Positions 2,159 to 42,463 of a stretch of 64,000 nucleotides of DNA are shown here, in pieces. The notes beneath the pieces were generated by a model, which was not told where the DNA came from, ran no database searches, and was given only the letters and a program-made list of their open reading frames with translations. Source of the stretch: Escherichia phage T4_ev151; the sequence record LR597660, one strand, 5' to 3'. Every line of letters starts with the position of its first letter. Positions within the stretch are counted from its first letter, which is position 1. The translations under genes were made by a program, and so were the position numbers.

Positions 2159-3978
2159 TACTGGCTCATCCATTCTTTGCGAAGGTCAGCATTATCTCCC
2201 ATGAGCATTTCAAAAAGCTCTTTCCAGTTCTCAGGAAGTTTAACAACATCATATACTGGATTTTGAATCATCTCACGATATTCAGATTTTTCCAAAGAGC
2301 CAAGTCCTTTAATATAACGGATGCTATGTTTAGGTAGAGCATCTTTGGCACTCTCATATTCAGCGACTGTATAAAACCATTCTTGTTTTTTACCGACCTG
2401 AGCGATGATTACAGGAGTTTTGACAAAGCGAATTCGTCCTTGCTCAAACAGTTCTGGCCAATTACTAAAAAATCCAAGAAGAGAAGGATAAATGCTTCCT
2501 AGACCATCATGGTCAGCATCAGTCATAATAGCAATATTATGATAATTCAAGTTTTCAGCTTTTTCACCAAGAACTAATCCAGTGATTGCGCAAATATCAA
2601 ATAGTTCTTTATTTTTAAGCATATCAGCATATGACATACCCCAACTGTTGAGAACTTTACCACGCAATGGATAACCACCATGAAGTTCTTTATCACGAAC
2701 ATCAATAAGATATCCGATAGCAGAATCACCCTCAGTCAAGAAAAGAGTAGTATCAGCATCTTTACCGCAAAGATTCGCTTTGATATGTTTATGAACTTTA
2801 GCTTTAGAAGCCTTTTTAGCTGCTTTAGTTTCAGCTGCTTTTTCTGCTGCCAATTTACGAGCTAGTGCAGCTTCAATAATCGGCATTAAAATTGCTTCAT
2901 TATTTAGAATAGCGCGTGAAATCTTTTTAGCATCAAGCTGAATATGACTACGAATTTCACCAAATGGAGAAGTCAAACGCTCTTTAGTCTGAGAATCAAA
3001 TCGCATGTTTTTCATATCACGAACAAACATAACGATAGTCAAACATTCTTTAACACGTGCTTTAGTTACATCAATTTTGAACTTGCGCTTGATTTGTGGA
3101 ATAAGGTCTTCACAAATATCATCCATAACGCAGTCAATGTGATGGCCACCATTCTTAGTATGAATGTTATTGACGTATGTTAATTGACGAAAACCATCTG
3201 GTGAACGACCAACCGCAATAGAACAATTTTCTTGTTCTTGAACAATAGCATGCTCATCATATTGGCGTGCATATTTCTTAAAATTACCCTGAACCTTTTT
3301 ACCATTAAAGGTAAATTGAATATCAGGATAAACTACTGCAAGTGTCTGGAGACGATCTAGTGTAATGTCAAGATAAACTTGAGATAGCTCATTAGTTTCA
3401 AATGACATAAAATCAGGAATGAAAGTAACGCGAGTTCCTTTCCATTTTCCAGGAATAGTTTCCCAGGATTTATTTTCCATGCCATTTGAACAACGAACTA
3501 CAATATTATTTTGACCATCGCCAGTTTCACCGACAAACATCACAGAAAAAATGTTAGTTAAACTAGAACCAACACCATTCATACCACCGGTGACACGTTC
3601 TTTATCATCACCAAAGTTACCACCCGCTTTTGGAATAGTCCAAGCAGCAACTGGACCAGGAATTTCTTCACCGGTAGGTGTTTTAACCATCGCTTGTGGA
3701 ATACCACGACCGTTATCTTCAACTGTTACTTGATTGTTTTTGATAGTAACATTAATTTTATTTGCGAATTTAAACTTAGTACGAATACCTTCATCTACTG
3801 AGTTATCGATAATTTCATCAATAAGCTTAACAAGACCAGGTACATACTGAACACTTTCCCATTTACCAAACAGAAAGCGCTCATGCATTTCATTAGCAGA
3901 AGAGCCAATATACATGCCGCTACGCTTTTTGATATGTTCAATATCGCTCAGAATTTTAATTTCATTCTTAATCATCAC
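2158..3978 (-). CDS. 39: DNA topoisomerase II large (ATPase) subunit, uninterrupted 39+60 fusion
   Basis: 606 aa; GHKL motif IDNSVDEG; C-terminal third (IAIMTDADHDGLGSIYPSLLGFFSNWPELF...) is the segment encoded separately by gene 60 in T4; single continuous frame. Confidence 0.9.
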   Translation of the reverse strand: MMIKNEIKILSDIEHIKKRSGMYIGSSANEMHERFLFGKWESVQYVPGLVKLIDEIIDNSVDEGIRTKFKFANKINVTIKNNQVTVEDNGRGIPQAMVKTPTGEEIPGPVAAWTIPKAGGNFGDDKERVTGGMNGVGSSLTNIFSVMFVGETGDGQNNIVVRCSNGMENKSWETIPGKWKGTRVTFIPDFMSFETNELSQVYLDITLDRLQTLAVVYPDIQFTFNGKKVQGNFKKYARQYDEHAIVQEQENCSIAVGRSPDGFRQLTYVNNIHTKNGGHHIDCVMDDICEDLIPQIKRKFKIDVTKARVKECLTIVMFVRDMKNMRFDSQTKERLTSPFGEIRSHIQLDAKKISRAILNNEAILMPIIEAALARKLAAEKAAETKAAKKASKAKVHKHIKANLCGKDADTTLFLTEGDSAIGYLIDVRDKELHGGYPLRGKVLNSWGMSYADMLKNKELFDICAITGLVLGEKAENLNYHNIAIMTDADHDGLGSIYPSLLGFFSNWPELFEQGRIRFVKTPVIIAQVGKKQEWFYTVAEYESAKDALPKHSIRYIKGLGSLEKSEYREMIQNPVYDVVKLPENWKELFEMLMGDNADLRKEWMSQ

Positions 3979-4863: not shown

Positions 4864-5289
4864 TTATTCCTTAAAGTGTGCTTTCAGCATTTGATACAAG
4901 GACCATGCCTGTTCATTATTTTCAATAGTAACTTTCATGACAGGAAATTCTGTGAAATCTTCTATTTGTTCTTGCTCTTTCTCTTCCTGCTCTTGCTCTT
5001 CAGCTGCCTGGTATGGATTTTCAACTTCATCAAAGAATTCAGCTTCGCTAGTAGAAAGCCAAATAAAATCTTCATCCAAAATATCTTTACCGGAGGATAA
5101 TGCCAATCTTCCAGTAGATGACATAATTTTAGTTGGACGACCAAGATAGTCAATATCTATAACTTTAAAAGGTTCCATACCTAAACGTCGTGCATAAATT
5201 CCGTTTTCAGTATGGTCTTTAATAAAAGCTTCTTGAGCTTGTTTATTTTTAAATTGATACCATTTATTAACTTCAAATCTAATAGCCAT
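4864..5289 (-). CDS. hypothetical acidic protein (goF position)
   Basis: 141-aa ORF, Glu-rich [12 protein letters not shown] segment. Confidence 0.45.
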
Positions 5290-5504
5290 TAATAAATTTC
5301 CTTCCAGTAAGTTGTACCGTCTTCAGTGATTTCACGGAATACACTGTAAATCGGTTGTTTATCACCAACCTTTTCATACACATAAACCGAAGTCAAGTGA
5401 GTAAACTTGATGGTGTGTTCCTTTTGAACTACTACCAAATTTGGATCGAATAATACATCTTCAAATTCGTCATTAGTGCAGTTCTGAACAATTTTACGTT
5501 TCAT
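5289..5504 (-). CDS. hypothetical protein (cef position)
   Basis: 71-aa ORF. Confidence 0.4.
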
Positions 5505-5517
5505 TACAATTTCCTCA

Positions 5518-5799
5518 TTAATTGAACAGTGGAGCGATGCGTTTCAGAAGAGTAGCAGCACCTTTGGCAAATTTTACATCATGAAAAACAGTTTCTTCTT
5601 CCGTTACAACACGAGCTTTAATGTTTTCACAATCCCAATTTTTGCGAACAATCTTCAAAAGCTGCAGTAAATCTTTACATTCAGCAATATCGATAACACA
5701 TCCACGAGAATCTTCCATTATTGCACGATAACCATAAGCCATACCATAATCATTGAAAGATTGCTCGATGATAATTAAGTTTTCCATTTTATTCTCCAA
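5518..5799 (-). CDS. hypothetical protein
   Basis: 93-aa ORF downstream of promoter/stem-loop cassette at 5806-5860. Confidence 0.4.
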   Translation of the reverse strand: MENKMENLIIIEQSFNDYGMAYGYRAIMEDSRGCVIDIAECKDLLQLLKIVRKNWDCENIKARVVTEEETVFHDVKFAKGAATLLKRIAPLFN

Positions 5800-5884
5800 G
5801 TTGTTTTCTGTATCAGTAGTTGATATTGATATAGTACCATAATCAACTACTGATGTATATAGTTTTATGAAAAAATTTTAAACT

Positions 5885-6376
5885 TTATGCATAACGAGCT
5901 TTGCTATAGTGTTTAATCCAGCTTTCAGGAATGACTTTGTATGTTCCTAAAAATACCGTGTTGTACAACTTAACACCGTCTTCTACCCATTGATCGGTAA
6001 TGTATGCACACATAGCGCGAGTACGGTTAACAACACCTTCCTCACCTTCAGTAAATTCAAACTCATAAGGAGCAACGAACTTGATAGCTTGACCGAGTTT
6101 CCACTTAAAGTCTACACCTACATGCGAAGTATCAATCGTTTCAATTCCTTTAGCGGGAACAGCTTTCAAAAACGCAGGCTCAAGAAATTTCCATCGAACA
6201 TAACCAAACTGAGGTTTAGACATTCCATCTTTAGGAATGATACGCACTTTTACTTCAGAATCTTCATCTTTAACACCATGTTTAAGCTGAATGCTTACGA
6301 CTTCAACCAATTTTCCTGCTGCCTTAGAACGGGATTTATCAGATACACGAGCAATTTCACCGATATTAATATTCAT
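5885..6376 (-). CDS. hypothetical protein, paralog of 6450-6884 (motB region)
   Basis: 163 aa; C-terminal ITDQWVEDGVKLYNTVFLGTYKVIPES resembles neighbour's VTDQWIEDGVELLNVVHAGEYSVVPRS. Confidence 0.5.
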   Translation of the reverse strand: MNINIGEIARVSDKSRSKAAGKLVEVVSIQLKHGVKDEDSEVKVRIIPKDGMSKPQFGYVRWKFLEPAFLKAVPAKGIETIDTSHVGVDFKWKLGQAIKFVAPYEFEFTEGEEGVVNRTRAMCAYITDQWVEDGVKLYNTVFLGTYKVIPESWIKHYSKARYA

Positions 6377-6418
6377 AATTATCTCTCACTTGTTAAAAAG
6401 ATTTTATACTCCACAGGA

Positions 6419-6448
6419 CCATTATACTCTGGTCCCAAGAGTTTGTAA
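6419..6448 (-). promoter_or_regulatory. early promoter (-35 GTTTAC / -10 TATAAT)
   Basis: plus-strand attata 6419-6424, gtaaac 6443-6448. Confidence 0.55.
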
Positions 6449-6449
6449 A

Positions 6450-6884
6450 CTAGCTTACACGAACATTAATCACTGCGCTACGAGGAACTACAGAGTATTC
6501 TCCAGCATGAACTACGTTCAGAAGTTCAACGCCATCTTCAATCCACTGGTCAGTTACCCAACCGCCGACCGGATTCGCGAATGGACGACGAATGTAAACC
6601 GCCTTACACAACAAATCAGTCGGATCTTCAGGTTTTTCAATTTCTGTCAATAGATTAAAATCTTCTTCATAGATGATGAATGATGATACCCTTCCATAAT
6701 AGTTTCTAATTTCCATGTACACTGTACCAATGAGAATTCCGCTATTAACACTAATAACAGTAAAAGGATATCCGCCAGTTGTACCAAGAAGTTCCCAAAA
6801 CTTGCTATCAGTCGTATTCGACATTGTCTGGAAATCAATTTCAGATGGTTTTTTCATTTGATACGTAGTATTAATTTTAATCAT
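6450..6884 (-). CDS. hypothetical protein, paralog of 5885-6376
   Basis: 144 aa; shared C-terminal motif. Confidence 0.5.
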   Translation of the reverse strand: MIKINTTYQMKKPSEIDFQTMSNTTDSKFWELLGTTGGYPFTVISVNSGILIGTVYMEIRNYYGRVSSFIIYEEDFNLLTEIEKPEDPTDLLCKAVYIRRPFANPVGGWVTDQWIEDGVELLNVVHAGEYSVVPRSAVINVRVS

Positions 6885-6894
6885 AATTTTCTCT

Positions 6895-7398
6895 TTAGTC
6901 TAAGGTAATAAAGCCTTTTAGTTCGGCATGAGATTTGCGGAACATTACTTGATGTCCTCCAATGATAACTTGGTCATCTGGCACTTCGTATACAGCAAGA
7001 TAAAATCCTTTAGAAGATAATTCTTCACGCTCTTCTCGGGTGAACCATCTCATCATATCATATTCACTAGCGAAAGCAAAATGATAAAGAGCTATAAACC
7101 ATCCTGGAATATAGTGATCTACGCCTACATATTCTTCTTTCTCAAAGTTAGTATTAATTGCTATATTAGCATTTTTAACTAATAATTTGTCTTCGCGCGG
7201 AAGAGGAATTCTTTTGTTATCATTACTATGATGCGTAAAATTAGGTCTATCATAACCTACGTGTAATAACCACTCTTCGCTCCATGAATCTATTATACTC
7301 CTGTATGGCGTTATTTGAACACAAAGATTTCGACGTATTGTTATAGCATCTTCACAATTAAGAATACTAAAAGATGACTCAACACGATAAATTTTCAT
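6895..7398 (-). CDS. hypothetical protein (start moved to internal Met MKIYRVESS with GAGGA RBS)
   Basis: track ORF 6895-7437 overlaps promoter at 7426-7455. Confidence 0.45.
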   Translation of the reverse strand: MKIYRVESSFSILNCEDAITIRRNLCVQITPYRSIIDSWSEEWLLHVGYDRPNFTHHSNDNKRIPLPREDKLLVKNANIAINTNFEKEEYVGVDHYIPGWFIALYHFAFASEYDMMRWFTREEREELSSKGFYLAVYEVPDDQVIIGGHQVMFRKSHAELKGFITLD

Positions 7399-7425
7399 TT
7401 TATTATCCTCAGTAGCTATGGTGTT

Positions 7426-7455
7426 ATAATACCACAACTAACCGAGGAAGTAAAC
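7426..7455 (-). promoter_or_regulatory. early promoter (-35 GTTTAC / -10 TATTAT with TG)
   Basis: plus-strand ataata 7426-7431, gtaaac 7450-7455. Confidence 0.5.
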
Positions 7456-7461
7456 AACTTT

Positions 7462-8145
7462 TTATCGTTTTGTTGGAAGAGATAGAGGATCGCACTCTTC
7501 CTCTGACGGAGCATCTTCAAGACCCATAGCATACCGCAAAGCATACTTCATCATCAGGATGTCTTTCGCACAATCGTGAATAGAATCATGTGCAACGAAT
7601 CCATCTAAAGTTCCATTTGGAAGAGGACATGTGGTCATATCACGAACAAGCAGAAGTGCTTCAATTCTGGTACGAATATCACGCTGATTCCAGAATTTAC
7701 AAGGTTCTAACTTAAACGTATCAAGCTCATTCTCGGAAACGCCGTTAAGACGTTGAATATCACGAATGAGATCAACTAAAATTGGAAAATCAAACGACAT
7801 TCCACGGCACCAGCCTTGAGATTTCCAAGGATCGATGTTATGTGCATTGATGTAATCATTAAATTTTGCAATACCATCGATAGTGCTTACATCTTCATCT
7901 GATGGCGCAATATTTTTTCGAGCTTCAGGAGATTGATTTTTCCACCATTCGATAGTGCTTTTAGTAAAAAGACGATGTCCTTTTTGGCTTTTTAAATCAA
8001 ACTTGATTTTAATGCCGCGTGAAACTAATTCATCAAATGTTTCAACTACTTCTGGATTAGGATCAAAGGCAATAACAGCCAAATCAATAACAGCTGCCTT
8101 TTCACCGCTTCCCATTGTTTCAAAATCTATAATAAAATCAAACAT
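7462..8145 (-). CDS. dexA: exonuclease A (DnaQ-like 3'-5' exonuclease)
   Basis: 227 aa, N-term MFDFIIDFETMGSG; size and position match T4 dexA. Confidence 0.8.
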   Translation of the reverse strand: MFDFIIDFETMGSGEKAAVIDLAVIAFDPNPEVVETFDELVSRGIKIKFDLKSQKGHRLFTKSTIEWWKNQSPEARKNIAPSDEDVSTIDGIAKFNDYINAHNIDPWKSQGWCRGMSFDFPILVDLIRDIQRLNGVSENELDTFKLEPCKFWNQRDIRTRIEALLLVRDMTTCPLPNGTLDGFVAHDSIHDCAKDILMMKYALRYAMGLEDAPSEEECDPLSLPTKR

Positions 8146-8387
8146 TAAATTTTCCTCGCTAAATCGCGAATTTGACCTACAGTATAATCTTGGATATAAA
8201 CTTTATTAATGGGCTCATCAATAAATTTTGCCATAGATTCAATATCTTTTTGTATCTCTTCAAGACTGTATACTATCTTTAAAGCTTTTTCGCGAATAGT
8301 AACATTATCAGGTCCTGAATTTTCTTGAATGACAGCTTTAACATTTGCCGTAAGAGATTTAAACTGATGCAAACTTAATTCAATCAT
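8145..8387 (-). CDS. small hypothetical protein
   Basis: track ORF 8145-8420 trimmed to Met with plausible RBS. Confidence 0.35.
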   Translation of the reverse strand: MIELSLHQFKSLTANVKAVIQENSGPDNVTIREKALKIVYSLEEIQKDIESMAKFIDEPINKVYIQDYTVGQIRDLARKI

Positions 8388-41959: not shown

Positions 41960-42463
41960 TCAAGTATTGTAAAACATTTGATTCAATCGCTTATATTGCC
42001 GAATCTTTTGGTCAGAAAAAGAAATTTGGGTTTCAAGCCATTCAATATATTCTGCCGCAGCTTGCATCAAATTTCCTTCATAGCCATCGTTATTTTCTTG
42101 TGCAGCTAATTTAGCTAATGCGTATGAAATACGTTCACCTTGAAAATCGGCTTTAGGCTTCTGAACAACTTGATTAGTTCGCTCTACAACTTCTTCAATT
42201 TCGCCATTTTCAACGGATTCAGTATTCCATAAGCACCAATACGTAATTGGCTTATCATAGATATTAATAATCTTTCCGTCGGAAAGTTCAATTTCAATAA
42301 TTCCAGTATCAGGTTCTATATCATCTTCACATTCTTTTGCAAGTTCACGAACTTTAAAGACAGTACCTGCACTAAGTTCCGGCCAGTAATTACACAGCCC
42401 TGTATCAACACGATTAATTCTAAACCACTTATCTACTGTAATCATGTCCCATCTCCATATCAA
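41960..42463 (-). CDS. hypothetical protein at pin position
   Basis: 167-aa ORF upstream of gene 49. Confidence 0.4.
   Translation of the reverse strand: MIWRWDMITVDKWFRINRVDTGLCNYWPELSAGTVFKVRELAKECEDDIEPDTGIIEIELSDGKIINIYDKPITYWCLWNTESVENGEIEEVVERTNQVVQKPKADFQGERISYALAKLAAQENNDGYEGNLMQAAAEYIEWLETQISFSDQKIRQYKRLNQMFYNT

What the first reader, a model, noticed from the sequence alone, without database searches (positions are those of the whole stretch)
5885..6884. Tandem paralogs upstream of dexA with shared C-terminal domain
The 163-aa and 144-aa proteins share the motif [IV]TDQW[VI]EDGV.L.N.V..G.Y.V[IV]P. The downstream copy has its own early promoter (6419-6448). The position corresponds to the T4 motB region.
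Basis: partly seen in the sequence, partly recalled or inferred. Interest (0 to 1): 0.35.

Follow-up and report, generated by a model that had tools for sequence, protein, structure and literature searches.

The report
T4 MotB and MotB.1 partial paralogs
The two neighbouring genes are the known phage T4 early genes motB and motB.1, which share a small, highly conserved C-terminal module behind unrelated N-terminal domains; this relationship was published in 2021, so the finding is real but ordinary.

Summary
The window is a T4-like phage (Tequatrovirus). ORF 5885-6376(-) is MotB (Pfam PF17613, 1e-96). ORF 6450-6884(-) is MotB.1 (phrog_2333, 9e-69).

The two share a C-terminal module. BLASTP gives 16/29 identical residues (E 8e-10). 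Family profiles align over 51 columns (98.2%, E 3.7e-14): MotB 93-157 with MotB.1 91-142, with a 13-residue insertion in MotB. The N-terminal halves do not match. MotB has a basic KOW-like barrel. MotB.1 has an acidic barrel weakly similar to GoF.

A near-consensus promoter (TTTACA-17-TATAAT, 6449-6421, minus strand) lies in the 73-bp gap before motB and is identical in T4.

The shared C-terminal domain and the duplication idea were published by Son et al. 2021 (PMC7827196), and the GoF-like N-terminal domain of MotB.1 by Kim et al. 2025 (PMC12152347). The finding is therefore already known.

- The module is rare (about 30 representative proteins among 1.84 billion) and always C-terminal.
- Two remote T4-like contigs carry one KOW-plus-module gene at the same position.
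- The legacy T4 reference alone has an extra G that truncates MotB.1 to 119 aa inside the motif. Thirteen other T4, RB55 and RB59 records lack that G; the two whose annotation I opened encode 143 aa.

The module's function is unknown.

The parts
5885..6376 (-). motB coding sequence (163 aa), the downstream copy
   Evidence: Pfam PF17613 motB 1.1e-96 over residues 1-163; phrog_1671, annotated as a MotB-like transcriptional regulator, 3.7e-76; colinear with T4 MotB.
6450..6884 (-). motB.1 coding sequence (144 aa), the upstream copy
   Evidence: phrog_2333 9.3e-69; 96% identical to T4 MotB.1 over the part that the T4 reference encodes; 99% identical full-length homologues of 144 aa in other phages.
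5906..6100 (-). shared C-terminal module in MotB (residues 93-157), including a 13-residue insertion that MotB.1 lacks
   Evidence: hhalign of the two family alignments, 98.2%, E 3.7e-14. The AlphaFold2 model shows five strands with pLDDT 80-94. Coordinates.
6459..6614 (-). shared C-terminal module in MotB.1 (residues 91-142)
   Evidence: hhalign; Pfam motB hit at residues 103-138, 32.8 bits against a cut-off of 25. The model shows four strands with pLDDT 64-71, lower at the tail.
5927..6001 (-). motif core ITDQWVEDGVKLYNTVFLGTYKVIP in MotB
6483..6557 (-). motif core VTDQWIEDGVELLNVVHAGEYSVVP in MotB.1
6421..6449 (-). sigma-70 / T4 early-type promoter in the 73-bp gap between motB.1 and motB (TTTACA-17-TATAAT)
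   Evidence: 11 of 12 consensus match, the best site in 5200-8300. The sequence is identical in T4. The equivalent site in phage Kha5h is annotated as similar to the consensus host promoter. Activity was not tested.
6173..6376 (-). MotB N-terminal domain (residues 1-68): basic small beta-barrel, called KOW-like in the literature
   Evidence: Model strands at 8-11, 23-30, 41-46, 56-61 and 65-67, pLDDT 80-91. pI 9.6, charge +3.6. The KOW assignment comes from HHpred in PMC7827196. Pfam KOW did not hit here.
6630..6884 (-). MotB.1 N-terminal domain (residues 1-85): acidic barrel, GoF-like, called LSm-like in the literature
   Evidence: Model pLDDT about 89. pI 4.7. Weak hit to phrog_622, E 5.9e-4 and 1.4e-3; window GoF hits the same family at 8.8e-40. 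Foldseek match to a GoF model, E 1.9e-2. The relationship is published in PMC12152347.
4864..5289 (-). goF (141 aa), a neighbouring gene whose N-terminal domain is the reported relative of the MotB.1 N-terminal domain
   Evidence: phrog_622 8.8e-40 and PHROG families annotated as goF; position matches T4 goF.
6895..7398 (-). motB.2 (about 167 aa counted from the ATG at 7398). It lies directly upstream of motB.1 with a 10-bp gap, so the two are probably co-transcribed
   Evidence: phrog_1106 5e-56. T4 motB.2 occupies the same position at 166 aa. The 180-aa ORF starts at an upstream TTG. P0243 and the T4 homologue support the start MKIYRVESS.

Best explanation
These are the T4 early genes motB and motB.1 in a T4-like phage. 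They are partial paralogs. Both end in the same small all-beta module of about 52-65 residues (core G-[WYF]-[VI]-[TS]-D-Q-W-[VI]-E-D-G-V-x-L-x-N-x-V), but they carry different N-terminal barrels. MotB has a basic KOW-like domain. MotB.1 has an acidic domain related to that of GoF, whose gene lies close by.

The most likely history (inferred) starts from a single KOW-plus-module gene at this position between motB.2 and cef. That gene was duplicated in the T4 lineage, and the upstream copy then exchanged its KOW domain for a GoF-type domain.

Expression (inferred from sequence): motB.1 is read through from motB.2 and dexA. motB also has its own strong early-type promoter in the 73-bp gap. That fits published reports that MotB is made early and abundantly.

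Mechanism (inferred, about 35% confidence): published work shows that MotB binds DNA tightly and without sequence specificity, alters H-NS footprints, is toxic to the host and doubles burst size. Here the positive charge sits in the KOW domain, while the shared module is neutral in MotB and acidic in MotB.1. I therefore favour this division of labour: the KOW domain supplies non-specific DNA binding, and the shared module is a conserved docking or self-association surface. Through it, MotB would spread cooperatively or contact a common partner. Acidic MotB.1 would be brought to the same partner or complex, or to MotB itself, carrying a different N-terminal domain with it.
For: Identity: Pfam motB 1.1e-96 for the 163-aa protein and a partial Pfam motB hit above the curated cut-off for the 144-aa protein; PHROG families; synteny and near-identity with T4.

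Shared module: BLASTP E 8e-10; hhalign 98.2%, E 3.7e-14, with no N-terminal match.

Old divergence rather than recent copying: the 75-nt motif core is only 57% identical at DNA level, the longest exact run is 5 nt, and only 7 of 15 identical-residue codons share their third base.

Constant module, variable N-terminus: in the MotB.1 family, mean pairwise identity is 79% (minimum 64%) in the C-terminal part and 49% (minimum 13%) in the N-terminal part. Architectures include a different N-terminal class, an added N-terminal extension, and doubled N-terminal domains.

Ancestral form: distant representatives combine a KOW-like N-terminus with a MotB.1-type or intermediate module. Two remote T4-like contigs have a single such gene followed by cef; in L006 it is also preceded by a motB.2-family gene, whereas the upstream gene in L007 touches the contig end and has no family call.

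GoF link: MotB.1 N-terminal domain against phrog_622, E about 1e-3, and GoF against phrog_622, 8.8e-40; Foldseek GoF match; PMC12152347.

Charge: MotB pI 9.0 with +3.6 in residues 1-68 and -0.2 in 93-163; MotB.1 pI 4.7 with -3.1 in its module.

Promoter.

MotB biochemistry: PMC6070864 and PMC7827196.
Against: The function of the shared module has not been shown anywhere. Son et al. 2021 assigned the MotB C-terminal domain to an OB-fold related to cold-shock DNA-binding domains by HHpred, and noted that either domain could bind DNA. That is a direct alternative to my docking-module reading.

My fold evidence is weak. The Foldseek PDB hits (tandem Tudor, UHRF1, Agenet, eIF5A, Spt5 KOW) have E values of only 3e-3 to 1e-2 and TM-scores of 0.25-0.35. 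They show two small beta-barrels in tandem and nothing more specific.

The MotB.1 module is modelled with only moderate confidence, pLDDT 64-71 and below 50 at the tail.

The GoF relationship is marginal by sequence: hhalign against the single GoF sequence gave E 0.1, probability 0.6%.

Net charge is a crude proxy for DNA binding.

Published T4 motB.1 knock-outs show no phenotype in burst size or plating.

The inference of a single ancestral copy rests on two short metagenomic contigs.
Confidence: 0.8

Rival explanations
1. The shared C-terminal module is itself the nucleic-acid-binding element, an OB-fold as Son et al. 2021 proposed. On this reading both MotB and MotB.1 are nucleic-acid binders, and their different N-terminal barrels set the specificity: KOW for DNA and the nucleoid, LSm-like for RNA.
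For: HHpred assignment of MotB residues 69-149 to a cold-shock-like OB-fold, with closest hits the archaeal eIF5A structures 1BKB and 2EIF (PMC7827196). eIF5A also appears among my Foldseek hits for the MotB model (8put_F, E 1e-2). The module is all-beta with 4-5 strands. Conserved aromatic residues (W, Y/F) in the motif could stack on bases; this last point is my inference.
Against: The module is net neutral in MotB and net acidic in MotB.1 (-3.1), and its invariant core, D-Q-W-x-E-D-G, is acidic. MotB.1 as a whole has pI 4.7. Kim et al. found no effect of MotB.1 in their RNA reporter assay, although they probably used the truncated 119-aa form. A profile of the module found no match to any PDB sequence at E below 0.7.
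Confidence: 0.3
2. The whole gene was duplicated and no domain was exchanged. Both N-terminal domains would descend from one ancestral SH3-like barrel and have simply diverged beyond recognition by sequence.
For: Both N-terminal domains are small five-stranded barrels of roughly equal size. Both whole-protein models retrieve the same tandem-Tudor and tandem-barrel structures. KOW and LSm-like folds both belong to the broad class of SH3-like small barrels (textbook knowledge).
Against: hhalign finds no N-terminal match between the two families, although the C-terminal parts align at E 3.7e-14. The MotB.1 N-terminal domain does hit the GoF family profile, while the MotB N-terminal domain hits only MotB families. 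Proteins with a KOW-like N-terminus joined to a MotB.1-type module exist, so the module lineage and the N-terminal type are uncoupled.
Confidence: 0.1
3. The similarity reflects recent gene conversion or recombination between the two neighbouring genes, not ancient shared ancestry maintained by selection.
For: The genes are adjacent. Deletion and fusion remnants exist at this locus: the 43-aa protein P0243 joins the MotB.2 N-terminus to the MotB.1 C-terminus, and a 29-aa RB69 peptide is reported in PMC7827196.
Against: DNA identity in the motif core is only 57%, with no exact run longer than 5 nt and with third codon positions largely different. The MotB-type signature (KLYN.VF) and the MotB.1-type signature (ELLNVVH) are each conserved across their own family.
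Confidence: 0.03
4. The shared motif is a chance or convergent match between unrelated proteins.
For: The BLASTP alignment covers only 29 residues.
Against: E 8e-10 pairwise; Pfam hit above the curated cut-off; profile-profile E 3.7e-14 over 51 columns with matching strand order in both models; same C-terminal position in every family member.
Confidence: 0.01

Closest known systems
Bacteriophage T4 MotB (Pfam PF17613; Patterson-West et al. 2018, PMC6070864; Son et al. 2021, PMC7827196)
   Same: The 163-aa protein is a full-length orthologue: Pfam 1.1e-96 over the whole model, the same position between motB.1 and cef, and the same promoter sequence upstream.
   Different: There are only allelic differences from T4 MotB, chiefly in the variable hairpin at residues 105-118. 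This window also has an extra 93-aa ORF between cef and motB that T4 lacks.
Bacteriophage T4 MotB.1 (phrog_2333; 'Category 2' of Son et al. 2021; LSm-like family of Kim et al. 2025, PMC12152347)
   Same: The 144-aa protein is the orthologue: 96-99% identity in the N-terminal 115 residues, same position, same 10-bp spacing after motB.2.
   Different: The T4 reference protein has 119 aa because one extra G falls inside the motif. The window allele is full length, like the 143-aa form annotated in the two re-sequenced T4 records I opened. Its last six residues (INVRVS) differ from the common VAILN tail.
T4 GoF and Frd.2 (LSm-like / SH3-like N-terminal domain family, Kim et al. 2025)
   Same: The MotB.1 N-terminal domain resembles the GoF N-terminal domain: a phrog_622 hit, a colinear though non-significant hhalign alignment, and a Foldseek match to a GoF model.
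   Different: GoF lacks the MotB-type C-terminal module. The motif search of the window found it only in MotB and MotB.1.
eIF5A, Spt5/NusG KOW proteins and tandem Tudor/Agenet readers (two small beta-barrels in tandem)
   Same: The overall architecture of two small barrels joined by a linker is shared. These are the top Foldseek PDB matches for both models, and HHpred links to KOW and eIF5A are published.
   Different: There is no significant sequence similarity. TM-scores are only 0.25-0.35 and E values 3e-3 or weaker. Nothing indicates hypusine, methyl-lysine reading or transcription-elongation functions. This is a resemblance of architecture, not family membership.

Membership tests
MotB (Pfam PF17613) | Full-length match to the family model above the curated gathering score | tested here: met
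   163-aa protein: 321.6 bits against a cut-off of 25, residues 1-163 on model positions 1-162.
MotB (Pfam PF17613) | The same criterion applied to the 144-aa protein | tested here: not met
   Only residues 103-138 match model positions 118-153. The score of 32.8 bits is above the cut-off but covers the C-terminal quarter only. The protein shares a module with MotB; it is not a MotB orthologue.
MotB (functional definition) | Tight, sequence-nonspecific DNA binding, co-purification with H-NS/StpA, and toxicity on expression | not testable with these tools
   These properties are known for T4 MotB from PMC6070864 and PMC7827196. Only the basic pI of 9.0 could be checked here.
MotB.1 (phrog_2333) | Full-length profile match, and a position immediately downstream of motB.2 and upstream of motB | tested here: met
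   9.3e-69 over residues 1-143; synteny with T4.
GoF / MotB.1 / Frd.2 LSm-like fold family (Kim et al. 2025) | N-terminal five-stranded bent antiparallel beta-sheet homologous to the GoF N-terminal domain | tested here: inconclusive
   The model shows strands at 7-10, 41-48, 54-60, 66-72 and 79-82 plus a helix at 23-36, with pLDDT about 89. The phrog_622 (GoF family) hit has E 5.9e-4 and 1.4e-3. hhalign against the single GoF sequence gave E 0.1. The Foldseek GoF match has E 1.9e-2 and TM 0.37/0.43. This is consistent with the published claim but marginal on its own.
KOW domain (Pfam PF00467) | Match of the MotB N-terminal domain to the KOW model | tested here: not met
   No KOW hit at E up to 1 for the window protein. 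The assignment rests on published HHpred results, on weak Foldseek hits to Spt5 and DSIF KOW domains, and on a precomputed faint KOW hit in the distant relative P0241.
OB-fold (cold-shock-like), as assigned to the MotB C-terminal domain by Son et al. 2021 | Five-stranded closed beta-barrel with OB topology, and similarity to known OB domains | tested here: inconclusive
   The MotB model has five strands in residues 97-157, but the MotB.1 module has only four. No PDB sequence hit was found. The Foldseek matches include both eIF5A (an OB-containing protein) and tandem Tudor domains (SH3-like), all weak. I had no access to the model coordinates, so topology could not be checked.
T4 early (sigma-70) promoter | Close match to TTGACA / 17 nt / TATAAT upstream of an early gene | tested here: met
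   TTTACA-17-TATAAT, 11 of 12, at 6449..6421 on the minus strand. It is identical in T4 and annotated as promoter-like in phage Kha5h. Transcription start and activity are not testable here.

The most novel reading that the evidence does not exclude
The conserved C-terminal module could be a shared docking or heterodimerisation surface. Through it, acidic MotB.1 would associate with basic, toxic MotB or with MotB's partner on the nucleoid and modulate it, making the two genes a functional pair. This would have been missed so far because the T4 reference ORF, and probably the synthesised constructs based on it, encode a MotB.1 that stops in the middle of the module.
Probability: 0.12. Interest if true: 0.5.

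Novelty: already known. Interest (0 to 1): 0.15.

Why it matters
As a discovery it matters little. MotB, MotB.1, their shared C-terminal domain and the duplication hypothesis are all in the literature (PMC7827196), and so is the GoF-like N-terminal domain of MotB.1 (PMC12152347).

Two by-products may be useful to people working on T4 host takeover.

1. The module common to both proteins is neutral or acidic and far better conserved than the N-terminal domains. That argues for testing it as an interaction surface and not assuming it is the DNA-binding OB-fold.

2. Among 15 T4, RB55 and RB59 records, only the legacy T4 reference has a 1-nt insertion that truncates MotB.1 inside the module. Negative results obtained with the 13.8-kDa form may therefore not apply to the natural 143/144-aa protein.

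Tried and rejected
1. Additional copies of the module in the window. A fuzzy regular expression on the six-frame translation found only MotB and MotB.1, plus one irrelevant 7-residue hit at 42203-42223.

2. Relatives of the module outside phages. A module profile run against 1.84 billion representatives gave 36 hits. The long multi-repeat proteins among them (P0242, Ig-like repeats; P0244, MucBP-like repeats; others of 570-1393 aa) match only through a short beta-hairpin-like stretch repeated 4-7 times, and I rejected them as spurious.

3. A solved structure for the module. None was found by sequence (best E 0.7, a glutathione transferase, meaningless).

4. Fold assignment by Foldseek against the PDB. 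Only weak matches to tandem small-barrel proteins were found. This is not enough to decide between OB and SH3-like for the module.

5. Direct profile comparison of the MotB.1 family with the single GoF sequence. It was not significant. I ran no further search on building a GoF profile, because the relationship is already published.

6. A terminator between motB.1 and motB. None was found, so read-through from upstream is assumed.

7. Recent gene conversion as the source of the similarity. Rejected on DNA identity.

Full report
**What is there.** The window is a T4-like myovirus. A 3-kb stretch around the finding is 97.4% identical to Yersinia phage phiD1 and 93-97% identical to hundreds of Tequatrovirus genomes. 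The minus-strand gene order is dda - dexA.2 - dexA.1 - dexA - motB.2 - motB.1 - motB - (extra 93-aa ORF) - cef - goF. Apart from the extra ORF, this is the T4 order.

The 163-aa ORF (5885-6376) matches the Pfam motB model end to end at 1.1e-96. The 144-aa ORF (6450-6884) matches phrog_2333 at 9.3e-69 and is the orthologue of T4 MotB.1.

**The observation.** The evidence that this is not chance:
- BLASTP of the two proteins gives 16/29 identities, E 8e-10.
- The 144-aa protein hits the Pfam motB model with residues 103-138 at 32.8 bits, above the curated 25-bit cut-off.
- I aligned 53 MotB-family and 54 MotB.1-family proteins collected. Profile-profile comparison gives 98.2% probability and E 3.7e-14 over 51 columns. 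MotB 93-157 aligns to MotB.1 91-142, with a 13-residue insertion in MotB.
- No other part of the two families aligns.
- A six-frame motif search found no third copy in the 64-kb window.

**The promoter.** The 73-bp gap between motB.1 and motB contains TTTACA-17 nt-TATAAT on the minus strand (6449..6421). It matches 11 of 12 consensus positions and is the best site in 5200-8300. It is identical in T4 and is annotated as host-promoter-like in phage Kha5h. No terminator-like hairpin separates the genes. So motB can be transcribed both by read-through from upstream and from its own promoter. motB.1 follows motB.2 after 10 bp and has no obvious promoter of its own.

**Anatomy of the two proteins.** AlphaFold2 models built from the family alignments show two domains in each protein.
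- MotB (mean pLDDT 80.5) has an N-terminal barrel (residues 8-67), a disordered linker (70-85, pLDDT below 50) and a five-strand C-terminal domain (97-157, pLDDT 80-94).
- MotB.1 (mean pLDDT 77.5) has a confident N-terminal barrel with one helix (7-82, pLDDT about 89) and a four-strand C-terminal module (95-140, pLDDT 64-71, lower at the tail).
- The shared motif covers the long central strand, the E-D-G turn and the next two strands in both models.

Foldseek against the PDB gave only weak matches for both models (E 3e-3 to 1e-2, TM 0.25-0.35). The hits are proteins built from two small barrels: 53BP1 and UHRF1 tandem Tudor domains, Agenet domains, eIF5A and Spt5 KOW pairs. That supports an architecture of two small beta-barrels in tandem and nothing more specific. 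No PDB sequence matches a profile of the module.

Foldseek against predicted viral structures retrieved MotB.1-family proteins, then MotB-family proteins through the C-terminal part, and a GoF model at E 1.9e-2.

**N-terminal domains.** The MotB N-terminus hits only MotB families. The MotB.1 N-terminus hits its own family and, weakly, phrog_622 (E 5.9e-4 full length; 1.4e-3 for residues 1-86). The window's GoF matches phrog_622 at 8.8e-40. A direct hhalign of the MotB.1 family against the single GoF sequence is colinear but not significant (E 0.1). My sequence evidence is therefore marginal. It agrees with Kim et al. [quoted passage not shown]

**Distribution and history.** A profile of the module alone was searched against 1.84 billion representative proteins. 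It found 36 proteins at E up to 1e-3 and 23 at E up to 1e-10. After discarding long repeat proteins that match only by a short hairpin, about 30 remain. All are 100-250 aa, and all carry the module at the C-terminus. Scoring them with separate domain HMMs gives these classes:
- KOW-like N-terminus plus MotB-type module.
- GoF-like N-terminus (one or two copies) plus MotB.1-type module.
- KOW-like N-terminus plus MotB.1-type module (P0231, P0232, P0237, P0238, P0240).
- KOW-like N-terminus plus an intermediate module that has both the MotB.1 'DPTDLL' start and the MotB hairpin insertion (P0230, P0233, P0234).
- More remote proteins (P0241, P0246, P0252, P0253). Their sequences begin with KOW-like motifs by eye, and P0241 has a precomputed faint Pfam KOW hit, but none of them scored against my KOW HMM.

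Two contigs encoding members of the last three classes have a single motB-like gene followed by cef, a 132-142-aa gene and the 39.2 zinc-ribbon gene. In L006 that gene is also preceded by a motB.2-family gene. In L007 the upstream gene touches the contig end and has no family call.

From this I infer three steps. KOW-plus-module was the ancestral single-copy state. The tandem pair arose by duplication within the T4 lineage. The upstream copy later acquired a GoF-type N-terminal domain.

The divergence is old. The 75-nt motif core is 57% identical between the two genes, with no exact run longer than 5 nt. That excludes recent gene conversion.

Within the MotB.1 family the module is much better conserved than the N-terminal part: 79% mean pairwise identity (minimum 64%) against 49% (minimum 13%).

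**How it probably works.**

*Shown by others for T4.* MotB is an abundant early protein. It binds modified and unmodified DNA tightly without sequence specificity. [quoted passage not shown] It up-regulates some H-NS-repressed host genes when over-produced, is toxic to E. coli, and doubles the burst size. Knock-outs of motB.1 show no phenotype, and its function is unknown.

*Computed here.* MotB has pI 9.0, with the net positive charge in residues 1-68 (+3.6). The shared module is neutral in MotB (-0.2) and acidic in MotB.1 (-3.1). MotB.1 as a whole has pI 4.7.

*Inferred.* The basic KOW-like domain is the better candidate for non-specific DNA binding. The shared, strongly conserved and partly acidic module is more likely a protein-contact surface. 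It could mediate self-association during cooperative spreading, contact with a common host or phage partner, or MotB-MotB.1 pairing. I give this about 35%. The published alternative, that the module is an OB-fold nucleic-acid binder, gets about 30%. The rest is unknown. Neither reading can be decided with the tools available here.

**Comparison with what is known.** Son et al. [quoted passage not shown] Kim et al. 2025 (PMC12152347) describe the N-terminal domain of MotB.1. Pfam and PHROGs already encode the relationship. A full-text search for 'motB.1' found only these two papers. The finding is therefore real but already known.

**Side observation of practical interest.** The legacy T4 reference (AF158101.6 = NC_000866.4) has one extra G inside the motif...CAATGGATTGGAAGATGG, where the window has ...CAGTGGATT-GAAGATGG. 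Its MotB.1 therefore ends ...TDQWIGRWR at 119 aa. The rest of the module is still readable in the shifted frame.

A 60-nt probe carrying the extra G matched only those two records at 100%. Thirteen other T4, T4T, RB55 and RB59 records match over 59 nt. MT984581 and HM137666 annotate a 432-nt, 143-aa MotB.1. In the protein collection the 143-aa form is on 256 contigs and the 119-aa form on 2.

The 119-aa '13.8 kDa' protein is thus most likely a legacy sequencing error or a stock-specific frameshift. Kim et al. report MotB.1 as 13.8 kDa. Their amber-mutant inserts are given in NC_000866.4 coordinates, and gene synthesis and plasmid construction were done by GenScript. So the protein they tested probably lacked most of the shared module.

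**Verdict.** Novelty: already known. Interest is low, with a small practical note on the T4 reference allele.

Noticed in passing
window 6538-6546 (minus strand, inside the motB.1 motif); L001 (NC_000866.4) motB.1 at locus 2792-3151: The legacy T4 reference has one extra G here that truncates MotB.1 to 119 aa (...TDQWIGRWR*). Thirteen other T4, T4T, RB55 and RB59 records and this window lack it; the two records I opened annotate 143 aa and the window encodes 144 aa. The 143-aa form is on 256 contigs and the 119-aa form on 2. The published MotB.1 experiments report a 13.8-kDa protein, cite NC_000866.4 coordinates for the amber constructs and had plasmids made by GenScript gene synthesis, so they probably tested the truncated form.
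   Followed up: partly
window 5518-5799 (minus strand): A 93-aa ORF (phrog_3720, 1.3e-46, unknown function) sits between cef and motB. T4 has only a 170-bp gap there. It is a lineage-variable insertion in the dispensable region, annotated elsewhere as a hypothetical protein similar to one of phage e11/2.
   Followed up: no
P0243 (43 aa; metagenomic relative): Its sequence, MKIYRVESSFSILDYEDGVELLNVVHAGDFSVVPRSAVVAILN, joins the first 13 or so residues of MotB.2 to the last 29 or so residues of MotB.1. It is a deletion remnant that removes most of both genes. It is probably the same kind of object as the 29-aa RB69 peptide, 'Category 3' of Son et al. 2021.
   Followed up: no
P0054, P0046, P0105 and similar proteins (244-252 aa): Some MotB.1-family proteins carry two GoF-like N-terminal domains in tandem before the single C-terminal module. 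Others (180 aa, for example P0098) carry a 39-residue N-terminal extension. The N-terminal part is modular while the C-terminal module stays nearly constant.
   Followed up: partly
L006 730-1203 and L007 461-892: Remote T4-like metagenomic contigs have a single motB-like gene (KOW-like N-terminus plus MotB.1-type or remote module) followed by cef. In L006 it is also preceded by a motB.2-family gene. This suggests the tandem pair is specific to the T4 lineage.
   Followed up: partly
window 6450-6470 (minus strand; last 6 codons of motB.1): The C-terminal tail of this allele (INVRVS) differs from the common T4-type tail (VAILN). The DNA alignment with T4 breaks down over about 20 nt just before the fully conserved promoter. 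This looks like a small mosaic junction at the gene end.
   Followed up: no
window 7426-7454 (minus strand): A second promoter-like site (TTTACT-17-TATTAT with an upstream TG, 9 of 12) lies in the gap between the dexA stop (7462) and the likely motB.2 start (ATG at 7398). It could drive motB.2 and motB.1. The 180-aa ORF listed for motB.2 starts at an upstream TTG and is probably over-extended.
   Followed up: no
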